Below are positions 1 through 57,070 of a stretch of DNA of 64,000 nucleotides, one piece after another. Under the pieces are notes generated by a model that saw only the letters and a list, made by a program, of their open reading frames with translations, had not been told where the DNA came from and searched no databases. Numbering within the stretch: position 1 is the first letter of the stretch; each line of letters starts with the position of its first letter. Source of the DNA: an uncultured Acidobacteriaceae bacterium (GTDB lineage: Bacteria; Acidobacteriota; Terriglobia; Terriglobales; Acidobacteriaceae); assembly GCA_963834815.1 (NCBI GenBank), contig CAWIDA010000009.1:414863-478862 (forward strand), read 5' to 3'. The translations under genes and the position numbers were made by a program.

Positions 1-300
1 CGCCCGATCAAACGACAATCGGCCACCAACTTGTCATCCTGCGGATGGAAGAGCGCCTGGATGGTTAGCGTCCTGGGCTCGTTGCGATAGAACTTGAACG
101 GCGCCAGGAAGTTCACCTCTTCAATCGACTCGACATGCCAACCGGGGTGGACACAGACGGCGGCTTCTGCGAACGCCTCAATCCCCATCACTCCGGGCAA
201 CACCGGCGTGCCGTCGATACGGTGGTCATAGAGGAACGGTTGAGCGGCGGGGTCGAGCGTTGTCTCCATGGTCAGGCCACGACTGAGACTCATGCCGGTT
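1..300 (-). other. Dehydratase (hot-dog, PKS-type) domain, N-terminal part only
   Basis: PFLYDHRIDGTPVLPGVMGIEAF matches the HxxxGxxxxP motif (His codon 224-222). The domain continues past coordinate 1. Confidence 0.8.
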
Positions 301-3300
301 AGCTTGCCGACCATAGGGCCTTGCGCTGCTAGCTTTTCGCTGGTGGTTGCCAGTGCGGCAGTATCCAGGCCGCCGGTCGCATCCCACTCGGCTAGCATGA
401 CTCCAAGGCGGCCGGCCACCACAACTTCACCTCGCGTACCACCAGCCGTGAGTTCGCGGCGAATCCATGGAACGCCGGCCTCGGGCGGCAACATGTCGAT
501 GCCTGCTAACTCCATCATCTTGGGGATGGATCCGCGGGTCGCCATGCCGATCCCGCCCCATGCTGTCCAGTCGATGACTATGCCCCGGGTACCCGGACGT
601 GTCGTGCGGAAGCTCGACGTGATCTTGCACAGCAGATCGTTGGCGGCACTGTAGTCCGACTGTCCTGCATTGCCGAAACGACCCGCGACTGAACTGAACG
701 CCACGGTCGCACCCAGCGGCATGTCTCCAATGGCATGCAGAAGGTTGAACCAACCGTCACTCTTGACGTCGAATACCAGATCGAATTCGCGCTGGTCCTT
801 ATCGGGCAAGAAGTGGCTGCGCTCCAGACCGGCAGCGTGCAGCAGCACGTCGATGCGTCCGCTTTGCCGGCGCACCTGCTCGATGACGTTGGCTACTCCG
901 GCAGCGTCGGTGAGATTGACGCTGACGTAGCGGGCAATTCCTCCGGCGGCTTGCACAGCATCGATCGCACTCTGAGCGGCTTGAGCGCGCTCCAGCGCCG
1001 CTAGCTCCTTCTCGACCAGAGCCGGCGTGGCACGTTCGCCGCGGGCCTGGATACGAGCGAAGAGATCGCGCTTGAGTCCGTCTTTGTCGCTGACGAAGCG
1101 AGCCAGGTCGGGATTGTTGGGATCAGGACTTGGCACGACATCAAGCAGGTAGAACGTGCCGCCGGATGCCGCAGCTAAATCAGAGGTGATCGCCGACACG
1201 ATACTTCCTGCCGCTCCGGTGATCACGAAGACGCTGTTCTCGTCCAGAATAAGGCCAGACTCGCCGTCGGCTACCGACTGCTCTTGCAATCCCACTGTCC
1301 AACGCAGTCCATTCTTATAGCCAATTTCGACCGCGCCCTGATCGCGTCGTGTCTCTTCGACAAGGAGGCCAGCGATTTCCGCCGGATCACGTTGAGCTTC
1401 GAAGTCAACCACTTTGACCAGGGCGTCGGCCCGCTCACGCTTGAACGTCTTGGTGAAGCCGGCAACTGCTCCGCCCAGTGGCGCGACCGCTCCGGCGAGG
1501 TCGTAGCCGTGTTGTCCACCCAGTCGCGTGGCCGTAACGAGGAACGTACTCGAAGCTGCAATTTGCTGGAAGAGAGAACGCATTACGACGTAGAGCGACT
1601 TGACGCGCACACGCAGCGCTTCGCGCCACGCGGGCAGGTCCATCCTGCCGATGTCACCCTCGTGGTCGAGAGCGGCCAGCCAGTAGACGCCCTGCACGGA
1701 ACCGGCAGTTGCCCACTTGTTGAGCAGGTCTGTCAGCACTCCCGCATCGCGGGTGTCGTCGAGCACCAGGACTTCCACTCCCAGGTTACGCAGACTTTGG
1801 GTTAATACCTTCGCGACGCCACCTTCGTCAGGCATTACCACGACGCGGCTGCCAGGGCCAAGCGTGACGCCCGTTGGCTTGCAGATACTGAGCGGCGGAC
1901 GCAGGTTGGGCAGCGGCACGCGACGTGGAACGCGATCGGCTGCATCGAAGCCGGCCAGTACAGGCCGGATCCGAGGCGGCCGCGCTGGAGTTGAGGCGGG
2001 CTGGGCCATCCGGACAGACGGTGGCGCCGCAATGCCGGTGGGTATAGCCGATGCTGCTGGAGTTGCCGTAACGACCTGTTTATCGATCGCGAATTGGATG
2101 ACGTGCGCCAGGGTTGGAAAATCACGCAACTTGAGGTTCTCTTCGCGAGGAATGTTGTAAGCCGCCCGCACCGCAGCGAACATCTCCGCCTGCTTGACCG
2201 TGTCGATGCCAAGGTCGGCCTCCAGATCAAGGTCGAGGTCCAGCATCTCCGGGGGATATCCGGTCTTCTCAGCCACGATCTCGAGTACCTTTTCCTTGAT
2301 TGCGTCGTAGTTGGCGGTTGACGCCGCCACCGTGGTTGCTGCGGTCTCGGCCGCTTCGGCGACGGGGGTGGCCAAGGATGTCGGGGTAGGCGCCGCGCCG
2401 CTCAAATCCGGGCGACTCTCATACACGAACCGAATCACGTGTGCCAGAGTTGGGTAGTCACGCAGCTTGCGGTTTTCATCCCGCGGGATGTTGTAAATCT
2501 CGCGGATGGCGGCGAACATCTCCGCCTGCTTGACGGTATCGACGCCGAGATCAGCTTCGAGGTCAAGATCCAAGTCCAGCATGTCTGTGGGATAGCCAGT
2601 CTTTTCCACCGCCAGGTCAAGAATGCGTTCCTTGACCGCGTCGGTCCCGGCGGCAGGCTGAGCGGCCGGAACCAGTGCAGTCGACGCACTCAACTCTGCC
2701 GTTGCGCTTGGCATGGTTGGAGCGGCAACCTCGACGGGTTGCGGCGCTGGCGACTCGTCTTGCGCAAGATCGGGACGGCTTTCATACACGAAACGGATCA
2801 CGTGTGACAGAGTGGGGTAGTCACGCAGCTTGCGGTTTTCGTCGCGCGGGATGTTGTAGATTTCGCGGATAGCGGCAAACATCTCCGCTTGCTTGACCGT
2901 ATCGACGCCTAGATCGGCCTCAAGGTCCAGGTCCAAGTCCAGCATGTCTCTCGGGTAGCCTGTCTTCTCCACCGCCAAGTCGAGAATGCGTTCCTTGACC
3001 GAGTCGGTCCCGGCAACAGGCGGGGCCGTCGGAGCCGGTCCAACTGGAGTTACTTCTGCGACAGCCGCAGGCTTGGAGGTGGCGGCCCCTTCTACGGTTT
3101 GCGGCATGGGTACGGGTTGCGGCGCAGGGGACTTGCCCCGCGCAAGATCCGGACGGCTCTCGTACACGAAGCGAATCACGTGTGCCAGAGTCGGATAGTC
3201 GCGCAGCTTGCGGCTTTCGTCGCGCGGGATGTTGTAAATCTCGCGGATGGCAGCGAACATCTCTGCCTGCTTGACGGTGTCGACCCCGAGGTCTGCTTCG

Positions 3301-6300
3301 AGGTCCAGATCCAGGTCCAGCATGTCTCTGGGATAGCCAGTTTTCTCCACTGCCAGATCGAGAATGCGTTCTTTCACCGCGTCACCAGCGGCCGACGATG
3401 CAGAAATCGTCTCGGGTACCAGCGAGGTGAGTTTGGTGTTTTCCGGTGGCTTGGTTACCGCCACGATTGGCGGCGCTGCGACGGCAGTGTCTGTATTTGG
3501 CCGGCGCTCATTCACAAAGCGAATCACATGGGCGAGCGTGGGGTAATCGCGCAGTTTGATCTGATCGTCACGCGCAATACCGTAGGCTTCGCGGATCGTG
3601 GCGAAGACCTCTGCCTGCTTGACGGTATCGACGCCCAAGTCGGCTTCGAGGTCGAGATCGAGATCGAGCATGTCGATGGGGTAGCCGGTTTTATCGGCCA
3701 CCAGCGCCAGCACCCGATCTTTCACTGATTCGGTAGAAGAGTTTGGTTTGGGCGGCGTGGCCGGTGCAACCGGCGCGGCCGCAACCACCTGAACTTGTGG
3801 TTCAACTTTCACCTGCTCTGCCTTCGGCTGCGGTGGCGCCGGCTTTACCGCGACGACTGCTGGCTTCGACGGGGGCGGCGGCGCCTGTACTGTTTGAGTC
3901 GGCGGCGGAATCGGTTTGACATCCTTCGCTGCCCCAGCAGCAACTCCGGCAACGCGGGCGGATAGGCCTTGATCACGCACGCGCAGGGTACGATTGACGA
4001 CTTCGAGATCCGCATCTGGACGGCCCGCTATTCTGGTCAGCCATGCGTCCCATGCCGGCTGATCGGCGACGCGGTAGGCATATCCTAGAGCATCCGGTCG
4101 GCGGCGAACTCCGTCCTTGGTTGGGATCCGACGCATCAGCGCCATGCTGATCTGTGAGCCAAAGCCCGCACCCAGTCGTAAGGCGTACTCGACGGGATAG
4201 TCGCCACCCTTTGCCAGATTCAACGAACCCAGTTCCGGATCGACTTCCTTGAAGTTGGGCACAGGAGGAACCACTCCCGTTTCCAGCACTTTCACCGCCA
4301 CCACTTCCTCGATACCAGTGGCCATGGCGTGGCCGGTGAAACCCTTGGTGTTGGCGATCACGATTTGGTCGGCAGTGTTGCCGAATACGCGACGCAGCGC
4401 GTTGATCTCCGCCGATGCGCTTCCGCCTCGAGCCGGCGTGTAGGTTTCATGGGAAACGAAGACGGTGTGTGGCGCGATCTGATGACGATCAATGCCGCTA
4501 TGCGCTTCGGCTTGCGCGATCAACGTCTCCATCACCTGGCCGATGTGCTGCACATCGAGGCGAGTGCCATGGAATGCACTGTTGGCAGTCACCGCGCCGA
4601 GCACTTCACAGATGGGCTGGATTCCACGCTCACGCGCGGCTTCGGCACTCTCAACAACGAGAGCCGCCGCACCCATACCGATGATCAAGCCGTGCCGCCG
4701 ACGATCGAAGGGAGTAGCGACCTCTTCGACTGCTGCATCAGTGGCGGCTGTTCCGCTGGCCAGGAAGCCCGCGCCAAACCATCCGATCAGGTGATCGGAA
4801 GTGACATCATCGGCCGTGATGATGATGACCCGGCTGCAGCGTCCGGCGCGGATCCAGTCCTGCGCCAGGCTGACGGCATGACTAGTGGTTGAGCAGGCGG
4901 AGTTGATTTGTGTGTTGGGACCGCGAGCGCCGATGAACTCGGCGAATTGCGAGTGCCCCATCGAGAGAGTCTTGAGCAGGAAGCGGCGGTCGAAGATATA
5001 GGGGTTCTTCTCAATCTCCGCGCGCAGTTCTTCGATCTTTCGGATTATCTCCTGGGCGAGGGGCGAATGGCCGTTGGTCCCTGCCACCGCTGCGACCATT
5101 TCCTCTAAGGAGGCTAGTTGCTGGCGACGGGCGTGGTCGGCATAGTACCGAGCCATCTCATCGGCGTACGCGTCGTAACCGGGAAAGGCCGAGCCAAAAA
5201 TTACGCCGGTATCGTCGCGCAGAGCATCCGGAAGCCCCCAGCGGTCGGGCAGCTGCGTGCCCTTGCTGGTGGTCTTGTAACGCATGACCAAGGGAATTCC
5301 CGCGTCGCGCATCGCTTCAATGCCGACTCCGATGGCAAGGCGAGTGACCTGATCGAGAGCGGCCACGCGCTCGGCGGAGACGCCGAATTCCTTTACCAAA
5401 TCGAAGGCGCCACCGCGACCCGCCAGCTTGATGACATCGGCAACGTCTTCAATGGTGTCGAATCTCGCCTCTCCGCTTTCACTCTTGACCAAACGCGTGA
5501 TGCGTTTGTCGAGCATGTCACGACGAAACTGGGAAGGGATGGGTTTGATGAACTGATCGCCCCGCAGAATTCGAGCGATATTGCCATCATCGAAGATGTG
5601 GTCGGTGCCCGGCAGGCCCATGGCTGCGCCAGTGATCGCCACAGGTTCGCCGGCAGATGGACTCTTCTGTCCGTGATAGATGTCCCAGCCGCGTTCCAGA
5701 ACGTCAGCGAAGAAGCGACCGAGTTCGGAATAGCGGTCGCCACTTGATGGAACGGTAAGTGCCACGCCAGGTGCCGGCGCTGCCGCTGCGACCAGCGCGG
5801 GAGTTTTCACCGCTGGATGAGCTGCTGCCGTGGCCACAACCTCAGGTGCGGGAACGCTGCTTGCCGGCGTTGCCGGCCTCGTCTCCTGCTGGATTGCGGC
5901 TGCATCCTTCTCGCATCCGAATCCCGCGGCATACAGCCCGCACAGCGCCTGGTTGAATGCCGCCAGGTCGTTGAGCTTGGGATGATTGGTGAACAGCGAA
6001 ATCACATCACCGCGCTCGCCCAGCACCTCCTCGGCAAACCCCTGCAACGCTTTCTTGGGTCCGACTTCCACAAATACGCGGGCGCCGGCATCGTAGAGCG
6101 ACTGCAAGCCTTTCACGAACTGCACCGGAGCCGCGACCTGCTGCGCGAGCAGATCGAGCATCTGGGGAACGACGTTCGGTCCGGTTGGATAGAACTCGCC
6201 ATTCACGTTCGCGACAACCGGCACCTGTGGTGGTTGAATCTGGAGGTGCGACAGCATCTCTCGCAACGGGGCGCTGGCGGGGGCGACAATCGAGGTATGA

Positions 6301-8759
6301 AAGGCGTGGCTCACCGGCAACGGGACTACGTTGAAGCCATTCTGCAGGAATATTTCTATGGCCTGTTCGACTGCCTTGCTGGCTCCGCCGATGACCGATT
6401 GCTGCCCGCTATTGATGTTGGCGATCACAACGTAATCGTTAATCGTCTTTAGGACTCGTTCGACTTCAGCCAGCGGCGCAAAGACGGCGGCCATTTTGCC
6501 GGTGTCTTTCACCGCCACCTTGGTCATGCCGCGACCACGAGCGCTTACGGCCTGCAGGGCGTTCTCGAAGGTGAGAGAGCCTGCGGCAACCAGGGCGCCG
6601 TATTCGCCTAGGCTGTGCCCCATCGTCATGTCAGGCTTTATGCCGTAGGCAGCCAACAACCTTGTGATCGCCAGGTCGATAGTCAACACGGTCGGCTGAG
6701 TGATCTCGGTCTGGCGCAGATCTTCCTCCGCTTTGGCGACTGCTTCGGCGTCCGACGGGTCAACAAAGATGAACTGGCTAAGTGGCTTGCCCAGCAGTGG
6801 GGTCATGATCCGGTCGGCTTCCACAAAAAGATCGGCCACGATGGGCTCTGCGGCGCGAAGCGGCTCGGTCATGTTGACGTACTGCGAGCCTTGGCCGGTG
6901 TAAAGGAACGCGACCTTGGGTGCGGGACCGTGTCCGCGAAAGATACCCTGCGCGCGCAATGCCTTCCAGATCGGAGCCTGGTTGGCCTGCAATGCCTTGA
7001 GCGCCGCGGCCGATTTAGTGGCTAGCTCAGCAGCATCGGCATAGTCGATCGCCACCCGTTCGGGTGCGCGCAGATCGCTCTCGGCGGGAGCAGTCGGCGC
7101 CGGCGCGCTGCCTGCCGCAGCCGCCTTCTGGACCGCGCTCAGTCGTGCGGCCAAATCACTTTCGGTGGCAGCACCAATCACCAGGGCGCCACGTAAAGGA
7201 GCCTTGCGAGTAGACTCGCCGGAGATCGTGGGGGAAATACTGCTTGCATGCATCGTCACATCCTTCACAACATTCTTCTCAACACCGGGCGGTATTGCAG
7301 GCACTGCGATGGAGCGCTTGCCGTTCCCGTTCAGCCTTCCGGGTATGTGCTCTTCCATCACTAAGTGGAAGTTGGTGCCGCCGAAACCAAACGCGCTGAC
7401 ACCAGCGCGACGTACGCCGCCGGCGGGAATTTCCCAAGGCTTCAGTGCGGTGTTGACGTACAGGGGAGAGTGAGCGAAATCGATCTCAGGACTGGGGTGC
7501 TCGCAGTGGAGACTGGGCGGCAACACCTTGTCGCGGAGCGCGAAGGCAGCTTTGAGGATTCCTGCGGCGCCGGCGGCCCCTTTGAGATGTCCGATATTCG
7601 ACTTCACTGACCCGAGCGCCACGGACCTGACGGGTAGATTCGCGCTGCTCAACATACCGGCCATGCTCTGTGCTTCGACCACGTCGCCTACGCGGGTCGA
7701 GGTGCCGTGACCTTCAATCAGCATCGCGGGCACGGGCGAAACGCCGGCATTTTGCCAGGCGCGCTCGACGCAGAACTTCTGCCCAATGGGATTCGGCGCT
7801 GTGATCCCCTTGCCTTTGCCGTCACTCGATCCGCCGATACCGCGCACCACGGCGTAAATTTTGTCCTGGTCGCGTTCCGCATCGGCCAGACGCTTCATCA
7901 GGAAGATGGCGGCACCTTCGCCCATAACGAAGCCATCGGCGCCCTCAGCGTAGGGACGAGTGCCAGTCGCCGACAGCGCACCGATCTTGCAAAACTTCAC
8001 GAAAGTCGGCGCGCCCATGTTGCGGTCGATGCCTCCGGTGACAACGACGTCGAAATCGTTCTCGATGAGACCTTCGACAGCCGACTTGATCGCAGCCATC
8101 GCCGACGCACAAGCCGCGTCGCAGATGTAATTAGGGCCGTGAAAGTTATAGAGGTTAGCGATGCGGCCAGCCATGCAGTTGGCCAGTTCACCAGGCATCG
8201 AATCTTCGGTGATGGGAGCAATTCGCTTGCCCATGCGTTCGTGGAACTGCCTGGTTATCTCCTCGCGTAGCGACTCGGGCAACGCCGCGAAGCCGGGTGA
8301 TTCTGCGAGTTCGTGTGCATATTCGGGAAAGAACACGCGCAAAGATGTCAGGTAATGCTTCTCTCCCGCCATGGCGTTACCGAGAATCACCGCCGTGCGA
8401 TCCAGTTCGAGTGGCCGTTGGGGATAGCCGTAATCTTCCAGCGCCTCGCGCGTGCAGGCGATAGCCCACTGCTGCGCGGGGTCCATGGCATCCGCGACCC
8501 GCGGCGGTATCGGCAACTTCCATTTCATCGGGTCCCAGGCAAACTCGCGTACCCATCCGCCGATCTTCGAATAAGTTTTGTCGGGCGCGTTGGGATCGGC
8601 ATCGTAGTAAAGTGCTGGGTCCCAGCGTTCAGCCGGAACCTCAGCGATGCTGTAGCGTCCAGCCTTCACGTTTTCCCAAAATGCAGGCGCGTTCGGAGAA
8701 TCGGGCAGGATGGCTCCCACCCCCACAATGGCAATGGCTCGATGTGCGGTGTTTTCCAT
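1..8759 (-). CDS. Type I polyketide / PUFA-synthase-like megasynthase (KS-AT-KS-5x carrier-KR-DH). The N-terminus is in the window and the C-terminal end runs off the left edge (>=2919 aa visible).
   Basis: My own translation of the minus strand from ATG (8759-8757) gives MENTAHRAIAIVGVGAILPDSPNAPAFWENV... All diagnostic motifs (KS1 Cys 8111-8109, AT Ser 6614-6612, KS2 Cys 4895-4893, KR Tyr 653-651, DH His 224-222) are in one frame, with codon high coordinate = 2 mod 3. The ORF track has no minus-strand entry in that frame between 1 and 8759, as expected for an ORF with no stop inside the window. AAGGAAA lies about 8 nt upstream of the ATG. Confidence 0.92.
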   Translation of the reverse strand, partial: MENTAHRAIAIVGVGAILPDSPNAPAFWENVKAGRYSIAEVPAERWDPALYYDADPNAPDKTYSKIGGWVREFAWDPMKWKLPIPPRVADAMDPAQQWAIACTREALEDYGYPQRPLELDRTAVILGNAMAGEKHYLTSLRVFFPEYAHELAESPGFAALPESLREEITRQFHERMGKRIAPITEDSMPGELANCMAGRIANLYNFHGPNYICDAACASAMAAIKSAVEGLIENDFDVVVTGGIDRNMGAPTFVKFCKIGALSATGTRPYAEGADGFVMGEGAAIFLMKRLADAERDQDKIYAVVRGIGGSSDGKGKGITAPNPIGQKFCVERAWQNAGVSPVPAMLIEGHGTSTRVGDVVEAQSMAGMLSSANLPVRSVALGSVKSNIGHLKGAAGAAGILKAAFALRDKVLPPSLHCEHPSPEIDFAHSPLYVNTALKPWEIPAGGVRRAGVSAFGFGGTNFHLVMEEHIPGRLNGNGKRSIAVPAIPPGVEKNVVKDVTMHASSISPTISGESTRKAPLRGALVIGAATESDLAARLSAVQKAAAAGSAPAPTAPAESDLRAPERVAIDYADAAELATKSAAALKALQANQAPIWKALRAQGIFRGHGPAPKVAFLYTGQGSQYVNMTEPLRAAEPIVADLFVEADRIMTPLLGKPLSQFIFVDPSDAEAVAKAEEDLRQTEITQPTVLTIDLAITRLLAAYGIKPDMTMGHSLGEYGALVAAGSLTFENALQAVSARGRGMTKVAVKDTGKMAAVFAPLAEVERVLKTINDYVVIANINSGQQSVIGGASKAVEQAIEIFLQNGFNVVPLPVSHAFHTSIVAPASAPLREMLSHLQIQPPQVPVVANVNGEFYPTGPNVVPQMLDLLAQQVAAPVQFVKGLQSLYDAGARVFVEVGPKKALQGFAEEVLGERGDVISLFTNHPKLNDLAAFNQALCGLYAAGFGCEKDAAAIQQETRPATPASSVPAPEVVATAAAHPAVKTPALVAAAAPAPGVALTVPSSGDRYSELGRFFADVLERGWDIYHGQKSPSAGEPVAITGAAMGLPGTDHIFDDGNIARILRGDQFIKPIPSQFRRDMLDKRITRLVKSESGEARFDTIEDVADVIKLAGRGGAFDLVKEFGVSAERVAALDQVTRLAIGVGIEAMRDAGIPLVMRYKTTSKGTQLPDRWGLPDALRDDTGVIFGSAFPGYDAYADEMARYYADHARRQQLASLEEMVAAVAGTNGHSPLAQEIIRKIEELRAEIEKNPYIFDRRFLLKTLSMGHSQFAEFIGARGPNTQINSACSTTSHAVSLAQDWIRAGRCSRVIIITADDVTSDHLIGWFGAGFLASGTAATDAAVEEVATPFDRRRHGLIIGMGAAALVVESAEAARERGIQPICEVLGAVTANSAFHGTRLDVQHIGQVMETLIAQAEAHSGIDRHQIAPHTVFVSHETYTPARGGSASAEINALRRVFGNTADQIVIANTKGFTGHAMATGIEEVVAVKVLETGVVPPVPNFKEVDPELGSLNLAKGGDYPVEYALRLGAGFGSQISMALMRRIPTKDGVRRRPDALGYAYRVADQPAWDAWLTRIAGRPDADLEVVNRTLRVRDQGLSARVAGVAAGAAKDVKPIPPPTQTVQAPPPPSKPAVVAVKPAPPQPKAEQVKVEPQVQVVAAAPVAPATPPKPNSSTESVKDRVLALVADKTGYPIDMLDLDLDLEADLGVDTVKQAEVFATIREAYGIARDDQIKLRDYPTLAHVIRFVNERRPNTDTAVAAPPIVAVTKPPENTKLTSLVPETISASSAAGDAVKERILDLAVEKTGYPRDMLDLDLDLEADLGVDTVKQAEMFAAIREIYNIPRDESRKLRDYPTLAHVIRFVYESRPDLARGKSPAPQPVPMPQTVEGAATSKPAAVAEVTPVGPAPTAPPVAGTDSVKERILDLAVEKTGYPRDMLDLDLDLEADLGVDTVKQAEMFAAIREIYNIPRDENRKLRDYPTLSHVIRFVYESRPDLAQDESPAPQPVEVAAPTMPSATAELSASTALVPAAQPAAGTDAVKERILDLAVEKTGYPTDMLDLDLDLEADLGVDTVKQAEMFAAIREIYNIPRDENRKLRDYPTLAHVIRFVYESRPDLSGAAPTPTSLATPVAEAAETAATTVAASTANYDAIKEKVLEIVAEKTGYPPEMLDLDLDLEADLGIDTVKQAEMFAAVRAAYNIPREENLKLRDFPTLAHVIQFAIDKQVVTATPAASAIPTGIAAPPSVRMAQPASTPARPPRIRPVLAGFDAADRVPRRVPLPNLRPPLSICKPTGVTLGPGSRVVVMPDEGGVAKVLTQSLRNLGVEVLVLDDTRDAGVLTDLLNKWATAGSVQGVYWLAALDHEGDIGRMDLPAWREALRVRVKSLYVVMRSLFQQIAASSTFLVTATRLGGQHGYDLAGAVAPLGGAVAGFTKTFKRERADALVKVVDFEAQRDPAEIAGLLVEETRRDQGAVEIGYKNGLRWTVGLQEQSVADGESGLILDENSVFVITGAAGSIVSAITSDLAAASGGTFYLLDVVPSPDPNNPDLARFVSDKDGLKRDLFARIQARGERATPALVEKELAALERAQAAQSAIDAVQAAGGIARYVSVNLTDAAGVANVIEQVRRQSGRIDVLLHAAGLERSHFLPDKDQREFDLVFDVKSDGWFNLLHAIGDMPLGATVAFSSVAGRFGNAGQSDYSAANDLLCKITSSFRTTRPGTRGIVIDWTAWGGIGMATRGSIPKMMELAGIDMLPPEAGVPWIRRELTAGGTRGEVVVAGRLGVMLAEWDATGGLDTAALATTSEKLAAQGPMVGKLTGMSLSRGLTMETTLDPAAQPFLYDHRIDGTPVLPGVMGIEAFAEAAVCVHPGWHVESIEEVNFLAPFKFYRNEPRTLTIQALFHPQDDKLVADCRLIG
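415..1880 (-). other. Ketoreductase domain (structural plus catalytic SDR subdomains)
   Basis: Rossmann motif SVFVITGAAGSIVSAI (about 1200-1245) and catalytic GQSDYSAANDLL (Tyr codon 653-651). Confidence 0.85.
2075..3735 (-). repeat. Five tandem acyl-carrier-like domains (about 75 aa each) separated by Ala/Pro-rich linkers. Repeat period is about 336-380 nt.
   Basis: Each unit reads ..KTGYPxxMLDLDLDLEADLG(V/I)DTVKQAE(M/V)FAA(I/V)R..Y.I.R......LRD(Y/F)PTL(A/S)HVI.F. Approximate units are 3508-3735, 3155-3385, 2778-3006, 2416-2644 and 2075-2310. Units 2-4 look roughly 85-90% identical at the nucleotide level by eye. Confidence 0.9.
4125..5655 (-). other. Second ketosynthase-type domain (divergent; active-site context resembles FAS-I). 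The Cys-His-His triad is present, so it is not a CLF.
   Basis: GPNTQINSACSTTSHAVSLA (Cys at aa 1289), VFVSHETYTPARGG, IANTKGFTGHAMATG and C-terminal LRLGAGFGSQISMAL. A long helical insert (YADHARRQQLASLEEMV...IRKIEELRAEIEKNPYIFDRRFLLKTL) precedes the Cys. The comparison to FAS-I-type KS is by eye and from memory only. Confidence 0.75.
6040..6925 (-). other. Acyltransferase domain (malonyl-type motifs)
   Basis: KVAFLYTGQGSQY, GHSLGEYGAL (Ser at aa 716, codon 6614-6612) and VSHAFHTS (an HAFH-type motif, usually malonyl-specific). Confidence 0.88.
7350..8745 (-). other. Ketosynthase domain 1 (canonical PKS/FabF-like, Cys-His-His)
   Basis: Motifs ICDAACASAMAAI (Cys at aa 217), IEGHGTSTRVGD and VKSNIGHLKGAAG. 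The domain ends at VSAFGFGGTNFHLVMEE. Confidence 0.9.
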
Positions 8760-8829: not shown

Positions 8830-10527
8830 CTAGCTATGAACAGGTACTTCCGTGAGCTGTTCCGCTTGACGTTTTTGAGCGCGGCCATACAAAACGTCGG
8901 CGACGTAATCGAGATCGGCAACCAGACCGGACTGAGCGCGGTGGATTGCCGGGAATCGCAGGGACTCCTCAAACTGCGGAACCTCTGCGTCGGTCACTCC
9001 GCCCGCGCCGACAACGCAGCGCAATCCGTCTTGCGCCACCTTCATCGCCGCCTCGCGCGCGAAGATACGGCTAATAGCTGCCAATGCGGCCGCGTCAAAG
9101 CGATCGTTGCCTTTCTCATTGAGCCGGCCTTCGGCGGAGAGTGCGGCGCGTCGAGCAAGCGTCGCAGCCGATTCGGCATAGGCGATCCACTCGCCGATGC
9201 GCAACAAAATGTGCTGGTAGCGGGTTAGCCGTCCCGCGCGGGCCTTTTCCATGATCTCTGCGAGAGCGTGCAGGGCCAGAGCCGCGACATCAGCTCCAAC
9301 GTTCGGATGGGCCGCGTGCAACAATTCCACCTGCTTCGCGCGCTCGTGATAGTGCTGTCCGCGCGTCTTCAGGTGGAGCTGCCAGCGGTCGCGGCTGATG
9401 GTCATCTCCATGATCTCGGAGGTGCCTTCGTAGATCGTGGTGATGCGCACGTCACGCTTGATCTTCTCCACCATGTACTCGTGCGTGTAGCCGTAACCGC
9501 CCAGCGCCTGGATGCTGGCTTCAGCGGCGGCATTTCCCGCCTCGGTAGACATGTACTTGGCAATCGCGCCTTCAGTGTTAAGACTTCCTTCGCCCGCATC
9601 GATGCGCTCGGCCGTTTCCTCGATAAAGGCGCGGCCCGCTTCCAGCCGGACGACGTTCGGCACGATCAGCTTGTGGGTGTAGCCTTGCTTCTCCGACAGT
9701 GGAGTTCCAGCCTGGATGCGCTTCGTGGAATACGGAATCGCACGGTCCAGCGCTGACCAGCCAGCGCCGAGCCCGAACGCGGCGACCATCAGTCGCGTGT
9801 ATCCGAACACGGCCTGGGCTTGCAGCAGCCCTTGTCCTTCCACGCCGCCTATCAGCCGGTCGGCATCGACATACGTGTCAACCAGCGACAGGGCGGCCGT
9901 ATTGCTCAGACGGATGCCGTGTTTGTTCTCCGGCTTATCGTGAGTGAAGCCTTTCGCGCCCCTCTCCACCACGAACCAACTCGGCCCGCTCGGCGTATTC
10001 GCCAGTACCGTATACAGGTCGGCAATGCCACCGTTGCTGATCCATTGCTTGCTGCCGTTGATCTTGTAGCCGACTACCTGGCCGTCCTGCAGGACGCGGT
10101 CCGCGGTGGTCTTGAGCGAGCCCAGGTCGCTGCCCGCTTCCGGCTCGGTAGCGCCGTAGGCAAACAGCACGCCTTCGTTTGCAATGCGGCTCAGCCACAA
10201 CTTCTTTTGCTCGGGGGTAGCGCCGACCGTGATCGGATCGCTGCCAAGAAAGGTGGCGAACAAAGACGTAGCGAGGCCGAGATCGATGCGGGCCATCTCT
10301 TCGCAGACGAGGTAGACGTCGAAGGTGCTTCCGCCCAGGCCGCCGTACTCCTCGGGAATGAACAGCAGTTGAATGCCGAGCTGGTCGGGGTTGCACATGT
10401 AGTGCACGATCTCCTCCGGACACTCGTCGCGCTCGTCGAGTTCGATCAGTACTTCGTCCGGCAGCCGTTTCTTGCCGAAGTCCCGCAGCGACTTCAAGCT
10501 AAGCTTTAAGGTTTTCTTGGTTATCAT
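8830..10527 (-). CDS. Acyl-CoA dehydrogenase family protein, long form with a C-terminal extension of about 170 aa
   Basis: ORF-track translation carries ACAD motifs ([27 protein letters not shown] with a catalytic Glu context). I prefer ATG 10527 (MITKKTL...) because GAGG lies about 8 nt upstream and this start does not overlap etfA. The track start at 10575 would overlap etfA by 32 nt. Confidence 0.9.
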
Positions 10528-10543
10528 TGCCAATGCCTCACTT

Positions 10544-11533
10544 TTATCGGGTCGCGTGCGCGCCCTTCGCTTCACGAACTTTGCTGGTCAATTCAGGGAT
10601 AAACTCCAGTATGTCGGCGACGATGCCCACATCCGCTACCTGAAAGATTGGCGCCTTGGGGTTCTTGTTGATGGCGACGATGAACGGACTGCCTTTGAGT
10701 CCAGCGAGATGCTGGAACGATCCGCTGATGCCGCACGCCAGGTAGATCTTCGGCTTCACCGTCTGGCCCGACGACCCAACCTGCCGCGACTTGGGCAGCC
10801 ACTTGGCATCGACCACCGGGCGCGAACAGCTCACGGCCGCGCCTAGGGCGTCAGCCAATTCCTGGGCAATCGAAACATTGTCTTGTTCCTGTATGCCGCG
10901 ACCGACGGAAACAAGGACCGGTTCCTTGGTGATGTCCACATCGCCGACTTCGGCCACGACCGTCTCCAGATAGCGTCGACCCGCTGTCAGCGCTCCGACG
11001 TCTGCCGACTTATCAACAACCACGCCATTCGCCGTCGCGGTCTCTATGGGCTTGAACGCTCCGGGACGCAGGTTGATCACCGCGCCAGCGGAAAGATCGC
11101 AGCGGACATGCGTACTCATCTGTCCGCCGAATTCCTGACGGACGACTTTGAGGAAATTTCCCTCGACCCCGTCGATGCCCATCACGTCCGAGACAAACGC
11201 AGCTCCAAGTTTCACCGACAGCCCAGGCCCCAGATCGATTCCAAAATGGTTGTGCACAACCAGTACGACGCTACCCGCTGGAACGATCTTCACCAGCGCT
11301 TTGCGAACCAGCTCGGCATTGGGATAGGCGAGACTGTCGCTCGCGATCTTCCACACCTCGGCGTAGGAGCCGCGCAGGCTGTCGCAGACCGCGTCGAGTT
11401 CGGCACCCGAGCCGGTGACAACCGCCGTCGGAGCCGCTGCGGGATCAATTTTTTTTGCCGCGGCCAACAGTTCGGCGGCGGAATCGTCAGCGACACCCTT
11501 GTGCGCGATGTAGGCAAAAATCCGGGCCGTCAT
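10544..11533 (-). CDS. etfA: Electron transfer flavoprotein subunit alpha
   Basis: The 329-aa product is typical EtfA (C-terminal FAD-binding region ...[37 protein letters not shown]). AAGGAGG lies 7 nt upstream. The ATG overlaps the etfB stop (ATGA, 11530-11533). Confidence 0.93.
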
Positions 11534-12321
11534 TGCATACCTCCTTTGGCTTTCATCAGCTCAATGAGCTTGTCGGCGATCTCTTCGTTGCTGCCCTGCA
11601 GAATCTCTGCGCCCTTGCCCAAGGCCGGCACAAAGTAGTCGTCGCGCTTCACCTTTGCGGCCGCTTCTCCGACGGAGCTTTTGTCGACGCCGAGATCGGC
11701 TGCTCCGTAGGTGGGAACTTCCAGTGACGCTGCCTGGCGGATGCCGCGCATCCCGACATAGCGCGGTTCGTTGATGCCGGTCTGGATTGAGAGCACGCAG
11801 GGGAGATCGATCTCGTTCATCTCCTTGTTGCCGCCTTCGATCTCGCGCCCGACCTTCAGCTTCTTGCCGTCGGCGACCTCGATGGAGTTCACCAGCGAGG
11901 CGAAGGGATAGTCGAGCATCGCAGCCAGCATCCCGCCTACCTGCGCGCCGCCATCTTCCGCCTGCACGCCGGTGAGGATCAGGTCGTAATTCCCTATCTG
12001 CACCAAGCCCTTCAGAATGGTTGCGATCCCTTTTCCGTCCGATCCGCTGAACACATCGTCAGAGAGCAGCACGCCATGATTCGCGCCCATGGCCAGTTCC
12101 CGCCGCAGGATTTCCTCGTCCTCTTCTGTGCCCACGGTGGCAACTGTGACGTTGCCGCCTGACTTGGCGACGATCTGCAGCGCTTCTTCGACCGCGTAGT
12201 TGTCCGGTTCATTGATCGAATACACGAGATCGTCGCGTTCAATATCGTTCCCCGCACCGTTGAGCTGAATCTCGTTCTCCGAGGTGTCGGGCACCCTTCT
12301 TGCGCAAACTAGAATCTCCAC
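11530..12321 (-). CDS. etfB: Electron transfer flavoprotein subunit beta
   Basis: The 263-aa product (MEILVCARRVPDTSENEIQL...) is typical EtfB. It has a GTG start with GGAG about 9 nt upstream. Confidence 0.92.
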   Translation of the reverse strand: MEILVCARRVPDTSENEIQLNGAGNDIERDDLVYSINEPDNYAVEEALQIVAKSGGNVTVATVGTEEDEEILRRELAMGANHGVLLSDDVFSGSDGKGIATILKGLVQIGNYDLILTGVQAEDGGAQVGGMLAAMLDYPFASLVNSIEVADGKKLKVGREIEGGNKEMNEIDLPCVLSIQTGINEPRYVGMRGIRQAASLEVPTYGAADLGVDKSSVGEAAAKVKRDDYFVPALGKGAEILQGSNEEIADKLIELMKAKGGMQ

Positions 12322-14517: not shown

Positions 14518-15130
14518 GACTCTCGGAATCTCCAAGTTGTGCCTACGCAGATTGGGTGCGCAGGATTGCAAAGTTCAGGGCTGCTTGCTGTCGTGTTCGT
14601 CCCATCCACCGAAGCGAATGGTCTCGGCAAGAGCCCGCCTGGACGAGCGATACCTGGTGGCAATTACATGGAGATTCCACTCGCATCTCGCCGGTACAGG
14701 ACGAGGAACGTGAAGCTGAATGCCGGTTGCCTACCGGGGATATGCACTGCCTCTACACTCGGCAGCACCCAGTGGGTGCCGTCGCGATTCCTACTAGACG
14801 TGGCGCCTGGGAGGCCGGGTGGAATCGTGCCCGACTGACTGTTTCAGATTATGTTCTGCCGCGGGCGGGCGGTCTGTGAGACCCATCACACGTTAGTAGT
14901 ACGGGGCGCACTCCACGTTCGTAGCAGCATCACGTACCGGCTGGTAATGCCAGACAGTTGCAAGTAATGGAAACTGTCTAACCTATGCAGATGCTCTTGG
15001 CTCGCTACATTGGAGGGTTGCGGATGAGGTTGATAAAGCGGGTTCAAACCGAACCGAACATCACGCCAAACAGCGCCAGGAGAGCGTTCCGGGGAAACCG
15101 CGGTTAGTCTTGAGTAAACGTGGATGCGGT

Positions 15131-15517
15131 CTATGCGTAGTCGATTGGATGGCGCTCGAGCCAGTATTCGTCCCGCGCAACTCCCATCTTCTTTGCTGCG
15201 GCATGCGCCATGCTCGCAGTAAGCTCGCGCGTTTCCCAGGTAAATCCTGCCAGGAATCCAACCGCGCTGCCAACCACCCCCAGGGCGAGGCTCTCCGGTA
15301 CGCGACGACGGCGGTTGGACAAAAGAAGTTGCACCAGACCCGCACACGCTCCAATAGCCGCCAGCCCTATCGACGCACGCGCCTTCTGCGTCAGAACCGG
15401 ACCGAGAGACCTGCCGTCCAGGTAAGTGTCGCGACCGCTGCGCAATCCGGATGCGCCCGAATTGGCGAGTGACCGACCATAACGCAAGTAGCTCTCAAGC
15501 GCTCGATCCGTATGCAT
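15131..15517 (-). CDS. Small hypothetical membrane protein (128 aa, two predicted TM helices)
   Basis: AGGAG lies about 9 nt upstream of ATG 15517. Hydrophobic segments are SIGLAAIGACAGLVQLLL and LALGVVGSAVGFLAGFTW. I recognise no family. Confidence 0.5.
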   Translation of the reverse strand: MHTDRALESYLRYGRSLANSGASGLRSGRDTYLDGRSLGPVLTQKARASIGLAAIGACAGLVQLLLSNRRRRVPESLALGVVGSAVGFLAGFTWETRELTASMAHAAAKKMGVARDEYWLERHPIDYA

Positions 15518-19747: not shown

Positions 19748-19810
19748 TCCTGGGAATTGAGAAGTCGGCGTTTCTCCGGCTGCGAGGTGAGGACGGGGTT
19801 GAGCGACATT

Positions 19811-19850
19811 GGTCGTTCCGTTGCGTTGGCAGCGGAACGACCCATTTCTT
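19811..19850 (+). terminator. Candidate intrinsic terminator after the repeat-protein gene
   Basis: 10-bp stem GGTCGTTCCG (19811-19820) / CGGAACGACC (19833-19842) with a 12-nt loop, followed by the T-rich CATTTCTTCC. Confidence 0.45.
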
Positions 19851-19895
19851 CCGCTTGCCACTTACCGAGGCGCGCATGTACGAGAGGAAGAAGAA

Positions 19896-30748: not shown

Positions 30749-33524
<2,776 letters not shown>

Positions 33525-57067: not shown

Positions 57068-57070
57068 CCG

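What the first reader, a model, noticed from the sequence alone, without database searches (positions are those of the whole stretch)
1..8759. The largest gene is missing from the ORF track: an 8.76-kb megasynthase with a non-canonical KS-AT-KS-CP5-KR-DH order
The minus-strand frame starting at ATG 8759 stays open to coordinate 1, which is why an ORF caller that needs a stop did not list it. Every plus-strand ORF listed between 268 and 8855 is a shadow of this gene. By hand I find these elements in order: KS1 (DAACAS / HGTST / NIGH), AT (GHSLGE / HAFH), a second complete thiolase-fold KS with its own Cys-His-His (NSACSTT / SHETYT / KGFTGH), five carrier modules, KR (YSAAN) and the start of a hot-dog DH (HRIDGTPVLP). 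The known PUFA-synthase subunit PfaA is KS-MAT-ACPn-KR-DH. Here an extra elongating-type KS sits between the AT and the carriers. Its active-site context and its long helical insert look more like FAS-I-type KS than modular-PKS KS. No ER, TE or reductase domain is visible before the window edge.
Basis: partly seen in the sequence, partly recalled or inferred. Interest (0 to 1): 0.7.

Follow-up and report, generated by a model that had tools for sequence, protein, structure and literature searches.

The report
Acidobacterial two-ketosynthase lipid megasynthase gene
The uncalled 8.8-kb gene is real and belongs to a "Type R" PUFA-synthase-like lipid megasynthase type catalogued in 2011 whose product is still unknown, but all of its acyl-carrier domains carry threonine where every textbook carrier has the cofactor-bearing serine.

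Summary
Observation confirmed. The source contig shows a 3109-aa protein. It ends 190 aa past the window edge, after the DH domain, with no ER, TE or reductase.

- **KS2:** it is a genuine ketosynthase, and Cys1289/His1437/Lys1472/His1477 are invariant in 121 of 121 homologues. Its predicted fold is FabF-like, not FAS-I-like.
- **Domain order:** it is not new. Shulse & Allen (2011) catalogued KS-MAT-"CLF"-ACP(3-6)-KR plus a PPTase as Type R, with an ACC gene in between in Koribacter. I found no report of its product.

I did not find these points reported:
- All carrier domains read DLG[VI]D-T-VKQAE. Threonine sits at the phosphopantetheine-serine position in 491 of 491 motif occurrences, in a confident ACP fold.
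- A 565-aa acyl-CoA dehydrogenase sits directly upstream in every informative locus. The core is ACAD, megasynthase, single-chain ACC, Sfp-type PPTase.
- Acidobacteriota add EtfB, EtfA and a membrane Fe-S oxidoreductase.

Best reading (inferred): an iterative fatty-acid-like synthase whose missing enoyl reductase is the ACAD.

The parts
1..8759 (-). Megasynthase CDS (first 2919 of 3109 codons). It continues 571 nt past window coordinate 1.
   Evidence: Open frame. Full length from source contig L081:11769-21098. PfaA model TIGR02813 scores 1047 bits against a cutoff of 1010.
7341..8741 (-). KS1, a PfaA-type ketosynthase (aa 7-473; Cys217, His351, His391).
   Evidence: Pfam ketoacyl-synt, Ketoacyl-synt_C and KAsynt_C_assoc. 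Codons verified.
6024..6908 (-). Acyltransferase (aa 618-912; GHS716LGE, HAFH818). The motifs indicate malonyl specificity, from general knowledge.
   Evidence: Pfam Acyl_transf_1 at 2.1e-39. FabD model TIGR00128 at 2.3e-61.
4125..5654 (-). KS2, a FabF-like ketosynthase (aa about 1036-1545; Cys1289, His1437, Lys1472, His1477). It carries a two-helix insert at about aa 1195-1251.
   Evidence: HMM and PDB alignments; catalytic residues invariant in 121/121; AF2 model and Foldseek.
3501..3737 (-). Carrier domain 1 (aa 1675-1753), with Thr1712 at the phosphopantetheine position.
   Evidence: Pfam PP-binding. Aligned to ACP DSL motifs. Codon ACC.
3153..3389 (-). Carrier domain 2 (aa 1791-1869), Thr1828.
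2775..3011 (-). Carrier domain 3 (aa 1917-1995), Thr1954.
2412..2648 (-). Carrier domain 4 (aa 2038-2116), Thr2075.
2076..2312 (-). Carrier domain 5 (aa 2150-2228), Thr2187.
   Evidence: AF2 model with pLDDT 89.4. The Thr is the first residue of helix II. ACP fold with TM 0.8-0.9.
555..998 (-). Ketoreductase catalytic subdomain (aa 2588-2735, Tyr2703).
   Evidence: Pfam KR at 3.7e-26 and adh_short.
1..317 (-). N-terminal half of a PKS-type double-hotdog dehydratase (aa 2815 onward, His2846). The second half lies beyond the window.
   Evidence: PKS_DH_N. PS-DH in the extension on L081.
8830..10527 (-). 565-aa acyl-CoA dehydrogenase (Bcd/SCAD/MCAD class, catalytic YEGTSE Glu, 185-aa C-terminal extension). 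Its stop codon is 70 nt upstream of the megasynthase start.
   Evidence: Directly upstream of the megasynthase in 79/83 loci (the other four are short or degenerate), including other lineages.
10544..11533 (-). Electron-transfer flavoprotein alpha subunit.
   Evidence: Pfam ETF and ETF_alpha. PDB matches.
11530..12321 (-). Electron-transfer flavoprotein beta subunit (overlaps the alpha gene by 4 nt).
   Evidence: Pfam ETF. PDB matches.
12397..14517 (-). 706-aa membrane Fe-S oxidoreductase with at least 4 N-terminal TM helices, 2x[4Fe-4S] and a CCG domain. It looks like an ETF:quinone oxidoreductase.
15896..17557 (+). WS/DGAT-family wax-ester/triacylglycerol synthase, divergent from the operon. 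Possible product acyltransferase; the association is weaker.
   Evidence: TIGR02946 scores 316.7 bits, above its cutoff. A WS/DGAT homologue lies upstream of the Fe-S gene in 37 related loci.

Best explanation
The gene encodes the single megasynthase of a 'Type R' secondary-lipid (PUFA-synthase-like) system in a Terriglobales acidobacterium.

**Shown**
- The protein is 3109 aa with the order KS1 (PfaA-type), AT, KS2 (FabF-like, full Cys-His-Lys-His set), five tandem ACP-fold carriers, KR, PKS-type DH. Nothing follows the DH.
- It sits in a conserved operon: membrane Fe-S oxidoreductase, EtfB, EtfA, ACAD, megasynthase, single-chain acetyl-CoA carboxylase (BC-BCCP-central-CT), Sfp-type PPTase.
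- The four genes ACAD, megasynthase, ACC and PPTase also stay together in four loci that lack the ETF genes (one named: Kibdelosporangium).

**Inferred mechanism**
- The ACC makes malonyl-CoA.
- The PPTase arms the carriers, which must then happen on the invariant Thr.
- The AT loads malonyl units onto the carriers.
- The two ketosynthases share iterative elongation, probably over different chain-length ranges, as KS-A and KS-C do in PUFA synthases.
- KR and DH produce a trans-2-enoyl-carrier intermediate.
- The ACAD supplies the missing enoyl reduction, running in the reductive direction. It would take electrons through ETF from the membrane Fe-S protein and the quinol pool.
- The product would be a saturated or largely saturated long-chain acyl lipid made in bulk. 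A WS/DGAT-type acyltransferase may off-load it.
For: **Identity and architecture**
- Domain and motif calls: 1, 3, 4, 8-10, 33, 103.
- Type R description: (PMC3098273).
- Taxonomy: the best relatives are Acidobacteriaceae/Terriglobales MAGs, and Korobacteraceae and Solibacter MAGs carry the same locus.

**Operon**
- Fe-S, EtfB, EtfA, ACAD, megasynthase and ACC co-occur in 74 loci, essentially every acidobacterial locus with enough upstream flank.
- A PPTase directly follows the ACC in 65 of 68 metagenome loci with room. It has intact G-x-D-x-E and W-S-x-K-E-S-x-x-K motifs (read by me from the sequence printed).
- ACAD, megasynthase, ACC and PPTase lie together without ETF genes in L082 (Kibdelosporangium), L165, L166 and L167.

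**ACAD as a system component**
- It is 63% identical between an acidobacterium and an actinomycete. It is 73-95% identical within Acidobacteriota, against 67-79% for the megasynthase.
- It forms a distinct subfamily of about 550 aa.
- The catalytic Glu motif is present.
- Its closest named families include reductive enzymes: acryloyl-CoA reductase AcrC (NCBIfam), and Bcd (5ol2_C) and caffeyl-CoA reductase CarC (6fah_C) among the PDB matches.

**No other ER candidate**
- No ER, FabK/PfaD, FabA-type DH, PfaB or PfaC is found in the protein, in the 64-kb window or in the flanks.

**Bulk flux**
- Five tandem carriers plus a dedicated ACC. Tandem ACP number scales PUFA productivity (PMC5067506 abstract).

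**Carriers**
- ACP fold with the Thr at the start of helix II.
- The operon has its own PPTase.
Against: - No experiment exists. Direction of the ACAD reaction cannot be read from sequence.
- ACAD plus ETF plus a membrane Fe-S oxidoreductase is also the standard first step of beta-oxidation. The ETF and Fe-S genes are not adjacent in the four non-acidobacterial loci.
- Whether the ETF is the bifurcating type is undetermined. The best PDB hits split between non-bifurcating (1o94) and bifurcating (6fah, 5ol2) ETFs.
- From general knowledge, iterative KS-AT-ACP-KR-DH synthases without an ER, such as enediyne PKSE, make conjugated polyenes, so a missing ER need not be filled.
- From general knowledge, E. 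coli AcpS does not modify a Ser-to-Thr ACP, so carrier activation on Thr is unproven.
- The apparent in-frame ACAD-KS1 fusion in Kibdelosporangium comes from an assembly full of frameshifts. It is not echoed among the 150 best ACAD representatives.
- The WS/DGAT link is only positional, seen in 37 loci.
Confidence: 0.55

Rival explanations
1. It is an iterative polyene or partly unsaturated polyketide synthase with no enoyl reduction. KS-AT-KS-ACPn-KR-DH would make an all-trans polyenoyl chain. The ACAD/ETF/Fe-S genes would then be neighbouring beta-oxidation genes, or would tailor or desaturate the product.
For: - There is no ER domain anywhere in the 3109-aa protein.
- ACAD, EtfAB and a membrane Fe-S oxidoreductase are the canonical oxidative module.
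- The ETF and Fe-S genes are missing next to the cluster in L082, L165, L166 and L167.
- From general knowledge, the related enediyne PKSE enzymes make polyenes.
Against: - The ACAD stays directly upstream of the megasynthase in every informative locus, in Acidobacteriota, in Kibdelosporangium and in three unnamed assemblies. It is more conserved than the synthase itself.
- A desaturase is redundant when KR and DH already yield an enoyl at every cycle.
- A dedicated 1867-aa ACC and five tandem carriers point to bulk lipid flux.
Confidence: 0.22
2. It is the PfaA subunit of a canonical PUFA (EPA/DHA-type) synthase, and its PfaB, PfaC and PfaD partners lie elsewhere in the genome.
For: - The TIGR02813 PfaA model scores 1047 bits, above its 1010 cutoff.
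- The protein has tandem carriers followed by KR and a PKS-type DH, as PfaA does.
Against: - An extra catalytically complete KS is inserted after the AT. The PfaA model covers the protein in three separate stretches.
- No PfaB, PfaC (KS-CLF plus FabA-type DH) or PfaD (FabK-type ER) is found in 64 kb of window or in the flanks of more than 80 related loci.
- Shulse & Allen define Type R as a lone pfaA homologue plus a PPTase.
- Without a FabA-type DH/isomerase there is no known route to cis double bonds.
Confidence: 0.04
3. KS2 is a chain-length factor, as labelled in 2011. It would be a non-condensing partner that pairs with KS1 and only sets chain length.
For: - Shulse & Allen label the domain CLF.
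- KS1 and KS2 are only 23% identical over 183 aa, about as divergent as KS/CLF pairs.
- KS2 follows the AT, where a post-AT linker would bring it back beside KS1 (inference).
Against: - From general knowledge, a CLF is defined by loss of the active-site Cys. Here Cys1289, His1437, Lys1472 and His1477 are invariant in 121 of 121 homologues at 60-90% identity.
- The fold is a complete FabF.
- A KS1:KS2 heterodimer in which both sites are active remains possible.
Confidence: 0.1
4. It is a two-module assembly line: KS1-AT as a loading or first module, and KS2-ACP5-KR-DH as an AT-less second module. It would act once or twice rather than iteratively.
For: There are two ketosynthases in series with one AT.
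Against: - There is no carrier domain between KS1-AT and KS2.
- From general knowledge, five near-identical tandem carriers (94-96% identity among CP2-4) are the hallmark of iterative PUFA-type synthases.
- There is no TE or release domain.
- Carrier number varies from 2 to 7 among orthologues, and the other domains are retained in the two full-length proteins examined.
Confidence: 0.04

Closest known systems
Type R secondary lipid synthase gene cluster (Shulse & Allen 2011, PLoS One 6:e20146; Koribacter versatilis Ellin345, Solibacter usitatus Ellin6076, Elusimicrobium minutum, Roseiflexus spp.)
   Same: - A single pfaA homologue with KS-MAT-(second KS-like domain)-ACP(3-6)-KR.
- A PPTase gene downstream, with an ACC gene between the two as in Koribacter.
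- The host phylum. Korobacteraceae and Solibacter MAGs are among the related loci.
   Different: - The paper calls the second domain a CLF. Here it has the full catalytic set.
- The passages I retrieved from the paper (keyword look-ups) list no DH and do not mention the upstream ACAD/EtfAB/Fe-S genes or the Thr in the carriers.
- The paper lists the product as uncharacterised.
PUFA synthase subunit PfaA (pfaABCDE of Shewanella/Photobacterium; Schizochytrium subunit A); NCBIfam TIGR02813
   Same: KS-MAT, tandem ACPs, KR and a PKS-type DH on one polypeptide. The protein passes the TIGR02813 cutoff. A dedicated PPTase is present.
   Different: - An extra FabF-like KS lies between the AT and the carriers.
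- There are no PfaB, PfaC or PfaD partners. That means no FabA-type DH/isomerase and no FabK-type ER.
- The carriers read DLGVDTVKQAE. The canonical motif is LGIDSIKRVEI (from general knowledge).
Type II beta-ketoacyl-ACP synthase II, FabF (for example P. aeruginosa 4b7v, E. coli 1kas)
   Same: KS2 matches the whole FabF fold (target TM 0.85-0.87) and has Cys-His-Lys-His in register.
   Different: - About 22% identity.
- Embedded in a megasynthase.
- About 100 extra residues, including two long helices (model residues 195-251).
- The C-terminal loop reads GFGS where FabF-type ketosynthases have GFGG. The KS2 motif is read from the translation; the FabF motif is from general knowledge.
Butyryl-CoA dehydrogenase/EtfAB, acryloyl-CoA reductase AcrABC and caffeyl-CoA reductase CarCDE (ACAD plus ETF systems that reduce enoyl-thioesters)
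   Same: The ACAD is of the Bcd/SCAD class with the catalytic Glu. The ETF alpha and beta genes are adjacent. The best NCBIfam hit for the ACAD is AcrC and for EtfA is AcrA; AcrB is the second-best hit for EtfB.
   Different: - All scores are far below the equivalog cutoffs.
- The partner here is a membrane Fe-S/CCG protein, which suggests a quinone link. There is no evidence for NADH/ferredoxin bifurcation.
- The presumed substrate is carrier-bound, not a CoA ester.
- The reaction direction is untested.
Single-chain multidomain acyl-CoA carboxylase SACE_4237 of Saccharopolyspora erythraea (PMC6491548)
   Same: The gene after the megasynthase encodes BC-BCCP-ACC_central-CT on one polypeptide of 1820-1867 aa. 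SACE_4237 is the published bacterial precedent and supplies malonyl-CoA.
   Different: SACE_4237 is a housekeeping enzyme. Here the carboxylase is dedicated to the synthase operon. I did not compare the sequences directly.

Membership tests
Type R secondary lipid synthase (Shulse & Allen 2011) | One pfaA homologue with the order KS-MAT-second KS-like ('CLF') domain-ACP(3-6)-KR. | tested here: met
   Pfam and NCBIfam give KS, AT, KS, five PP-binding domains and KR, plus a DH.
Type R secondary lipid synthase (Shulse & Allen 2011) | A downstream PPTase (pfaE homologue). In Koribacter an ACC gene lies between pfaA and pfaE. | tested here: met
   On the source contig the next gene is an 1867-aa ACC. 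An Sfp-type PPTase directly follows that ACC in 65/68 related acidobacterial loci. The PPTase of this exact genome lies beyond the DNA I could fetch.
Type R secondary lipid synthase (Shulse & Allen 2011) | No pfaB, pfaC or pfaD homologues in the cluster. | tested here: met
   None found in the 64-kb window or in the flanks of related loci.
Type R secondary lipid synthase (Shulse & Allen 2011) | KS1 groups with Type R proximal KS domains in the KS phylogeny (their Figure 2). | not tested
   Reference sequences from Koribacter, Roseiflexus and Elusimicrobium could not be fetched. Indirect support: Korobacteraceae and Solibacter MAG loci share 76% KS2 identity and the same synteny.
Canonical PUFA synthase (pfaABCDE) | PfaA-type polypeptide that passes the TIGR02813 model. 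| tested here: met
   1047.2 bits against a cutoff of 1010.1, but in three stretches interrupted by KS2.
Canonical PUFA synthase (pfaABCDE) | Partner subunits: PfaC (KS-CLF plus two FabA-type DH), PfaD (FabK-type ER) and PfaB (AT). | tested here: not met
   Absent from the window and from all fetched flanks.
Chain-length factor (CLF / KS-beta) | A KS-like domain that has lost the active-site cysteine. | tested here: not met
   Cys1289 is present and invariant in 121/121, together with His1437, Lys1472 and His1477.
   The top 50 Foldseek PDB hits are all type II FabF or mitochondrial KAS. The best 60 sequence hits are type II FAS ketosynthases (FabF, FabB, KasA, mitochondrial KAS) plus two type II PKS ketosynthases (1tqy, 6smo).
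Phosphopantetheine-dependent acyl carrier protein domain | Four-helix ACP fold. | tested here: met
   AF2 model with pLDDT 89.4. TM 0.8-0.9 and rmsd 1.4-2.0 A to holo and apo ACPs. Pfam PP-binding matches five times.
Phosphopantetheine-dependent acyl carrier protein domain | A conserved Ser in the D-S-(L/I/V) motif at the N-terminus of helix II, which carries the cofactor. | tested here: not met
   Thr occupies that column in all 5 domains here and in 325/325, 46/46 and 120/120 motif occurrences in relatives. There is no other conserved Ser in the domain.
Phosphopantetheine-dependent acyl carrier protein domain | The domain is actually modified with 4'-phosphopantetheine. | not testable with these tools
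   Only circumstantial: a dedicated Sfp-type PPTase in the operon.
Enoyl-thioester-reducing ACAD/ETF systems (Bcd-EtfAB, AcrABC, CarCDE) | An ACAD with the catalytic Glu plus cognate EtfA and EtfB. | tested here: met
   The ETF genes are adjacent only in the acidobacterial loci.
Enoyl-thioester-reducing ACAD/ETF systems (Bcd-EtfAB, AcrABC, CarCDE) | A bifurcating-type ETF with a second FAD, or another demonstrated low-potential electron donor that makes the reaction run reductively. | tested here: inconclusive
   The best PDB hits are split between the non-bifurcating M. methylotrophus ETF and the bifurcating CarDE and Bcd-Etf. The partner is a membrane Fe-S/CCG protein.

The most novel reading that the evidence does not exclude
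The whole family uses carrier domains whose 4'-phosphopantetheine arm is attached to threonine rather than serine, installed by the operon's own Sfp-type PPTase. Its fatty-acid-like elongation cycle is closed by an acyl-CoA-dehydrogenase-type flavoenzyme instead of an NAD(P)H-dependent enoyl reductase. That enzyme would be fed through ETF and a membrane Fe-S protein from the quinol pool. This would be a self-contained fatty-acid synthase (with its own ACC, PPTase and ER) coupled to the respiratory chain. It occurs in several hundred bacterial species.
Probability: 0.3. Interest if true: 0.85.

Novelty: new member of a known kind. Interest (0 to 1): 0.58.

Why it matters
**Scale.** The gene family is very common. 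Named hosts include Acidobacteriota, which are among the most abundant soil bacteria, as well as actinomycetes and myxobacteria. No product or role is reported for the type in the literature I could search.

**Features that deserve experiments**
- **Threonine at the cofactor site.** It is invariant in every carrier domain of the family. It either extends the chemistry of phosphopantetheinyl transfer or means these tandem 'ACPs' work differently from all characterised ones. The Thr codons are one mutation away from Ser, yet none of 491 motif occurrences has Ser.
- **The acyl-CoA dehydrogenase as a fixed partner.** The synthase lacks an ER. Pairing it with ETF and a membrane Fe-S protein suggests an enoyl reduction step wired to the quinone pool. 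That would be a new way to close a FAS cycle.

**Annotation lesson.** ORF callers that need a stop codon miss genes that run off a contig. Long-read MAGs also break this gene at its repeated carrier region, so it is under-annotated in databases.

Tried and rejected
- **FAS-I-type KS2.** Rejected by Foldseek and by sequence searches.
- **KS2 as a recent duplicate of KS1.** Rejected: only 23% identity over 183 aa.
- **KS2 as a Cys-less CLF.** Rejected.
- **ACAD-megasynthase fusion as a 'Rosetta stone'.** In Kibdelosporangium the ACAD runs in frame into KS1. That assembly is riddled with frameshifts, and none of the best 150 ACAD representatives is a long fusion protein, so I do not rely on it.
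- **Bifurcating versus non-bifurcating ETF.** PDB and NCBIfam matches were inconclusive.
- **DNA-level tandem repeats in the carrier region.** TRF found none. The repeats are visible only at protein level.
- **First look-up of the source contig.** It failed because the listed GTG start of the ACAD was 16 codons too long. The ATG start worked.
- **Nostocoides australiense hit (L083).** It is an isolated KS2 fragment near a transposase and gives no synteny information.
- **P0071.** It lies on a 3.7-kb contig with no context.
- **Literature searches.** I found nothing for KS-AT-KS or KS-MAT-CLF beyond the 2011 paper. The same held for ACAD/ETF-linked PKS, threonine phosphopantetheinylation and follow-up work on Type R. 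The Elusimicrobium genome paper (PMC2681670) is not held.
- **Carrier-domain search.** The database search returned only short fragments of the same family, so it could not show where Ser-type carriers begin.
Full report
**1.

Translating window 1-8759 on the minus strand gives 2919 sense codons starting at ATG 8759. At this base composition the chance of that many open codons is about 6e-40. The ORF lister skips it only because it needs a stop inside the window. An AAGGA ribosome-binding site lies about 9 nt upstream of the ATG.

Pfam finds these domains in order:

| Domain | Residues | Key residues |
|---|---|---|
| KS1 | 7-473 | Cys217, His351, His391 |
| AT | 618-912 | Ser716, HAFH818 |
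| KS2 | about 1036-1545 | Cys1289, His1437, Lys1472, His1477 |
| Five PP-binding domains | about 1675-2228 | Thr1712, 1828, 1954, 2075, 2187 |
| KR | 2588-2735 | Tyr2703 |
| PKS_DH_N | 2815-2902 | His2846 |

**2. The missing end of the gene**

I looked up the neighbouring acyl-CoA dehydrogenase by exact sequence, after correcting its start from the listed GTG to the ATG 16 codons downstream. This found the source contig, ENA ERZ25039558 contig_19181, a 1.18-Mb contig fetched as locus L081. It differs from the window at 22 of 20,527 overlapping bases and at 3 residues of the megasynthase.

On it the gene is 3109 codons long. The 190 residues beyond the window edge complete a PKS-type double-hotdog dehydratase, and then the protein stops. 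So the full architecture is KS1-AT-KS2-CP5-KR-DH, with no ER, TE or reductase.

**3. What KS2 is**

- **Family matches.** Scanned alone, residues 1001-1570 match Pfam ketoacyl-synt (1.7e-17) and Ketoacyl-synt_C (2.3e-7). The best NCBIfam match is FabF at 5.9e-41.
- **Catalytic residues.** PDB alignments to FabF put NSAC-STT, SH-ETYTP and TK-GFTGH on the catalytic Cys, His and Lys..His columns. In 120 database homologues at 60-90% identity, these four residues are invariant wherever the sequence covers the column. The homologues come from Acidobacteriota, Actinomycetota, Myxococcota and Proteobacteria.
- **Fold.** An AlphaFold model built on 55 sequences is confident (pLDDT 87.6, pTM 0.88). Its 50 best PDB matches are all type II FabF or mitochondrial KAS, with target TM 0.80-0.87 and about 22% identity. 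The extra length is mostly two long helices at model residues 195-251.
- **Relation to KS1.** KS1 and KS2 share only 23% identity over 183 residues.

KS2 is therefore a real FabF-like ketosynthase that looks catalytically competent. It is not a FAS-I-type KS, not a Cys-less chain-length factor, and not a recent copy of KS1.

**4. Is the domain order new? No**

Shulse & Allen (2011, PMC3098273) catalogued twenty types of pfa-like 'secondary lipid synthase' clusters. [quoted passage not shown] They found it in Koribacter versatilis, Solibacter usitatus, Elusimicrobium minutum and Roseiflexus. In Koribacter an acetyl-CoA carboxylase gene separates the two genes. The product is listed as uncharacterised.

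The present locus matches that description:
- The closest genomes are Acidobacteriaceae/Terriglobales MAGs, and Korobacteraceae and Solibacter MAGs carry the same locus.
- The gene after the megasynthase is an 1867-aa single-chain carboxylase with BC, BCCP, ACC_central and CT domains.
- In 65 of 68 related metagenome loci with enough room, an Sfp-type PPTase follows that carboxylase directly.
- No PfaB, PfaC or PfaD homologue occurs in the 64-kb window or in any fetched flank.

The protein passes NCBI's PfaA model (1047 bits against a cutoff of 1010). But it lacks the partner subunits that define a PUFA synthase, so I file it under Type R and not under PUFA synthase proper. Ten full-text searches found no later characterisation of Type R.

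**5. The carriers have threonine, not serine**

All five carrier domains read DLG[VI]D-T-VKQAE. In phmmer alignments to solved ACPs, this Thr falls exactly on the phosphopantetheine serine. Examples are the two PigH ACPs (DLGVDSI and DLGIDSV) and bacterial AcpPs (DLGADSL).

- The domain has no other conserved Ser.
- A confident AlphaFold model (pLDDT 89.4) shows a four-helix ACP fold, and the Thr is the first residue of helix II. The model superposes on holo-ACPs at 1.4-2.0 Å.
- The Thr is universal in the family. It appears in 325 of 325 motif occurrences in the fetched genome loci, including the actinomycete Kibdelosporangium. It also appears in 46 of 46 occurrences in KS2-linked database proteins from several phyla and in 120 of 120 carrier fragments.
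- The codons are ACC or ACG, one step from Ser, so Thr is being selected for.
- The operon has its own PPTase with intact G-x-D-x-E and W-S-x-K-E-S-x-x-K motifs (sequence printed).

The simplest reading is that the cofactor is attached to Thr. From general knowledge, E. coli AcpS does not modify a Ser36Thr ACP. I found no paper on threonine phosphopantetheinylation in the held library. Subscription journals are not covered, so I cannot exclude prior work.

**6. The conserved partners**

The genes upstream of the megasynthase are all on its strand, with short gaps or overlaps:

| Gene | Window coordinates | Features |
|---|---|---|
| Fe-S protein | 12397-14517 | 706 aa, at least four N-terminal TM helices, two 4Fe-4S motifs, a CCG domain |
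| EtfB | 11530-12321 | overlaps the EtfA gene by 4 nt |
| EtfA | 10544-11533 | |
| ACAD | 8830-10527 | 565 aa |

- **Synteny in Acidobacteriota.** Fe-S, EtfB, EtfA, ACAD, megasynthase and ACC co-occur in 74 loci, which is essentially every acidobacterial locus with enough upstream flank.
- **Synteny elsewhere.** I examined four loci that lack adjacent ETF and Fe-S genes: L082 (Kibdelosporangium), L165, L166 and L167. Only L082 has a named host. The four-gene core ACAD, megasynthase, ACC, PPTase is intact in all four.
- **Conservation of the ACAD.** It is 73-95% identical within Acidobacteriota, against 67-79% for the megasynthase. It is 63% identical to the Kibdelosporangium copy.
- **Type of ACAD.** It belongs to a distinct subfamily of about 550 aa with a 185-residue C-terminal extension. 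It keeps the catalytic YEGTSE glutamate. Its closest named relatives include enoyl-thioester reductases: AcrC, Bcd of the bifurcating complex, and CarC.
- **Type of ETF.** Whether it is bifurcating could not be decided.

**7. How it most likely works**

Shown:
- the architecture
- the catalytic residues
- the operon
- the absence of any ER domain or ER gene other than the ACAD

Inferred:
- The ACC supplies malonyl-CoA.
- The PPTase arms the Thr carriers.
- The AT (GHSLGE and HAFH, malonyl-type by general knowledge) loads them.
- KS1 and KS2 share iterative elongation over different chain lengths, as KS-A and KS-C do in PUFA synthases.
- KR and DH give a trans-2-enoyl intermediate.
- The ACAD reduces it, drawing electrons from ETF and, in Acidobacteriota, from the membrane Fe-S protein and the quinol pool.

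Taking menaquinone at about -74 mV and the enoyl/acyl-thioester couple at about -10 mV (general knowledge), that direction is thermodynamically allowed. Five tandem carriers and a private carboxylase suggest bulk lipid rather than a trace metabolite.

A divergently transcribed WS/DGAT gene (15896-17557, above the TIGR02946 cutoff) has a homologue upstream of the Fe-S gene in 37 related loci. A patatin-like lipase gene lies at 19809-21152. Both hint at neutral-lipid metabolism, but that link is only positional.

The main rival is an ER-less polyene synthase whose ACAD/ETF neighbours are ordinary beta-oxidation genes. The strict ACAD linkage in loci without ETF argues against it but does not exclude it.

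**8. Verdict**

- As flagged, the finding is a new member of a known but uncharacterised kind.
  - the invariant Thr at the cofactor site
  - the fixed ACAD partner
  - both in a system present in hundreds of bacterial species, many of them soil Acidobacteriota

Noticed in passing
window 2199-2201, 2535-2537, 2898-2900, 3276-3278, 3624-3626 (minus strand): The codons at the phosphopantetheine-attachment position of all five carrier domains encode Thr (ACC or ACG), not Ser. This holds for all 491 motif occurrences examined in relatives.
   Followed up: yes
L082:5928-7862 (Kibdelosporangium lantanae GCA_054775815.1): The ACAD reading frame runs without a stop straight into the KS1 N-terminus (...ADVLYGRRRV|MTEQPDRAVAIVGV...), which looks like an ACAD-megasynthase fusion. 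The assembly has many frameshifts, and no long fusion appears among the 150 best ACAD representatives.
   Followed up: partly
L167:1-19858 (ERZ25039558 contig_40299, same sample as the window): A second organism in the same metagenome carries two ACAD-megasynthase units in tandem, followed by one ACC and one PPTase. The first unit appears to lack the AT-KS2-carrier part in the gene calls.
   Followed up: no
window 15896-17557 (+) and 19809-21152 (+): A WS/DGAT wax-ester/triacylglycerol synthase and a patatin-like lipase lie divergent from the operon. A WS/DGAT homologue sits upstream of the Fe-S gene, on the same strand, in 37 related loci.
   Followed up: partly
L094:12269-13918 and about 25 other metagenome loci: A GMC-family FAD oxidoreductase follows the PPTase, directly or within about 2 kb, in many acidobacterial loci. 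It could be a tailoring enzyme such as an alcohol or aldehyde oxidase.
   Followed up: no
L001-L082, carrier region: The number of carrier domains varies from 2 to 7 among orthologues. In several long-read MAGs the gene is split into fragments at or near the repeats, which explains the many short 'partial' database entries.
   Followed up: partly
L083:10001-11804 (Nostocoides australiense HG764815.1): An isolated KS2-only fragment with no ACAD, ACC or PPTase around it, and a DDE transposase about 6 kb away. It is probably a decayed remnant.
   Followed up: no
window 12397-14571 and 8830-10575 (minus strand): The mechanical ORF starts (TTG 14571, GTG 10575) overshoot the starts called on the source contig by 18 codons (Fe-S protein) and 16 codons (ACAD). 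Exact-sequence look-ups fail unless the shorter forms are used.
   Followed up: yes
window 23689-24576 (+), 29423-30595 (-), 30749-32995 (-): A weak ceramidase-like hit (below the Pfam cutoff), a GT21-family glycosyltransferase (the ceramide-glucosyltransferase family) and a KatG-type catalase-peroxidase lie 14-24 kb from the operon. No link to the synthase was established.
   Followed up: no
window 53322-63962: A run of three FG-GAP/ASPIC (UnbV) repeat proteins interleaved with TPR proteins and an amidase. It is unrelated to the finding.
   Followed up: no
window 14900-15290 (minus strand; equivalent to L081:5011-5397): A 128-aa ORF with one predicted TM helix lies between the WS/DGAT and Fe-S genes. 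It has no family hit, but 23 related loci conserve it at 42-76% identity.
   Followed up: no
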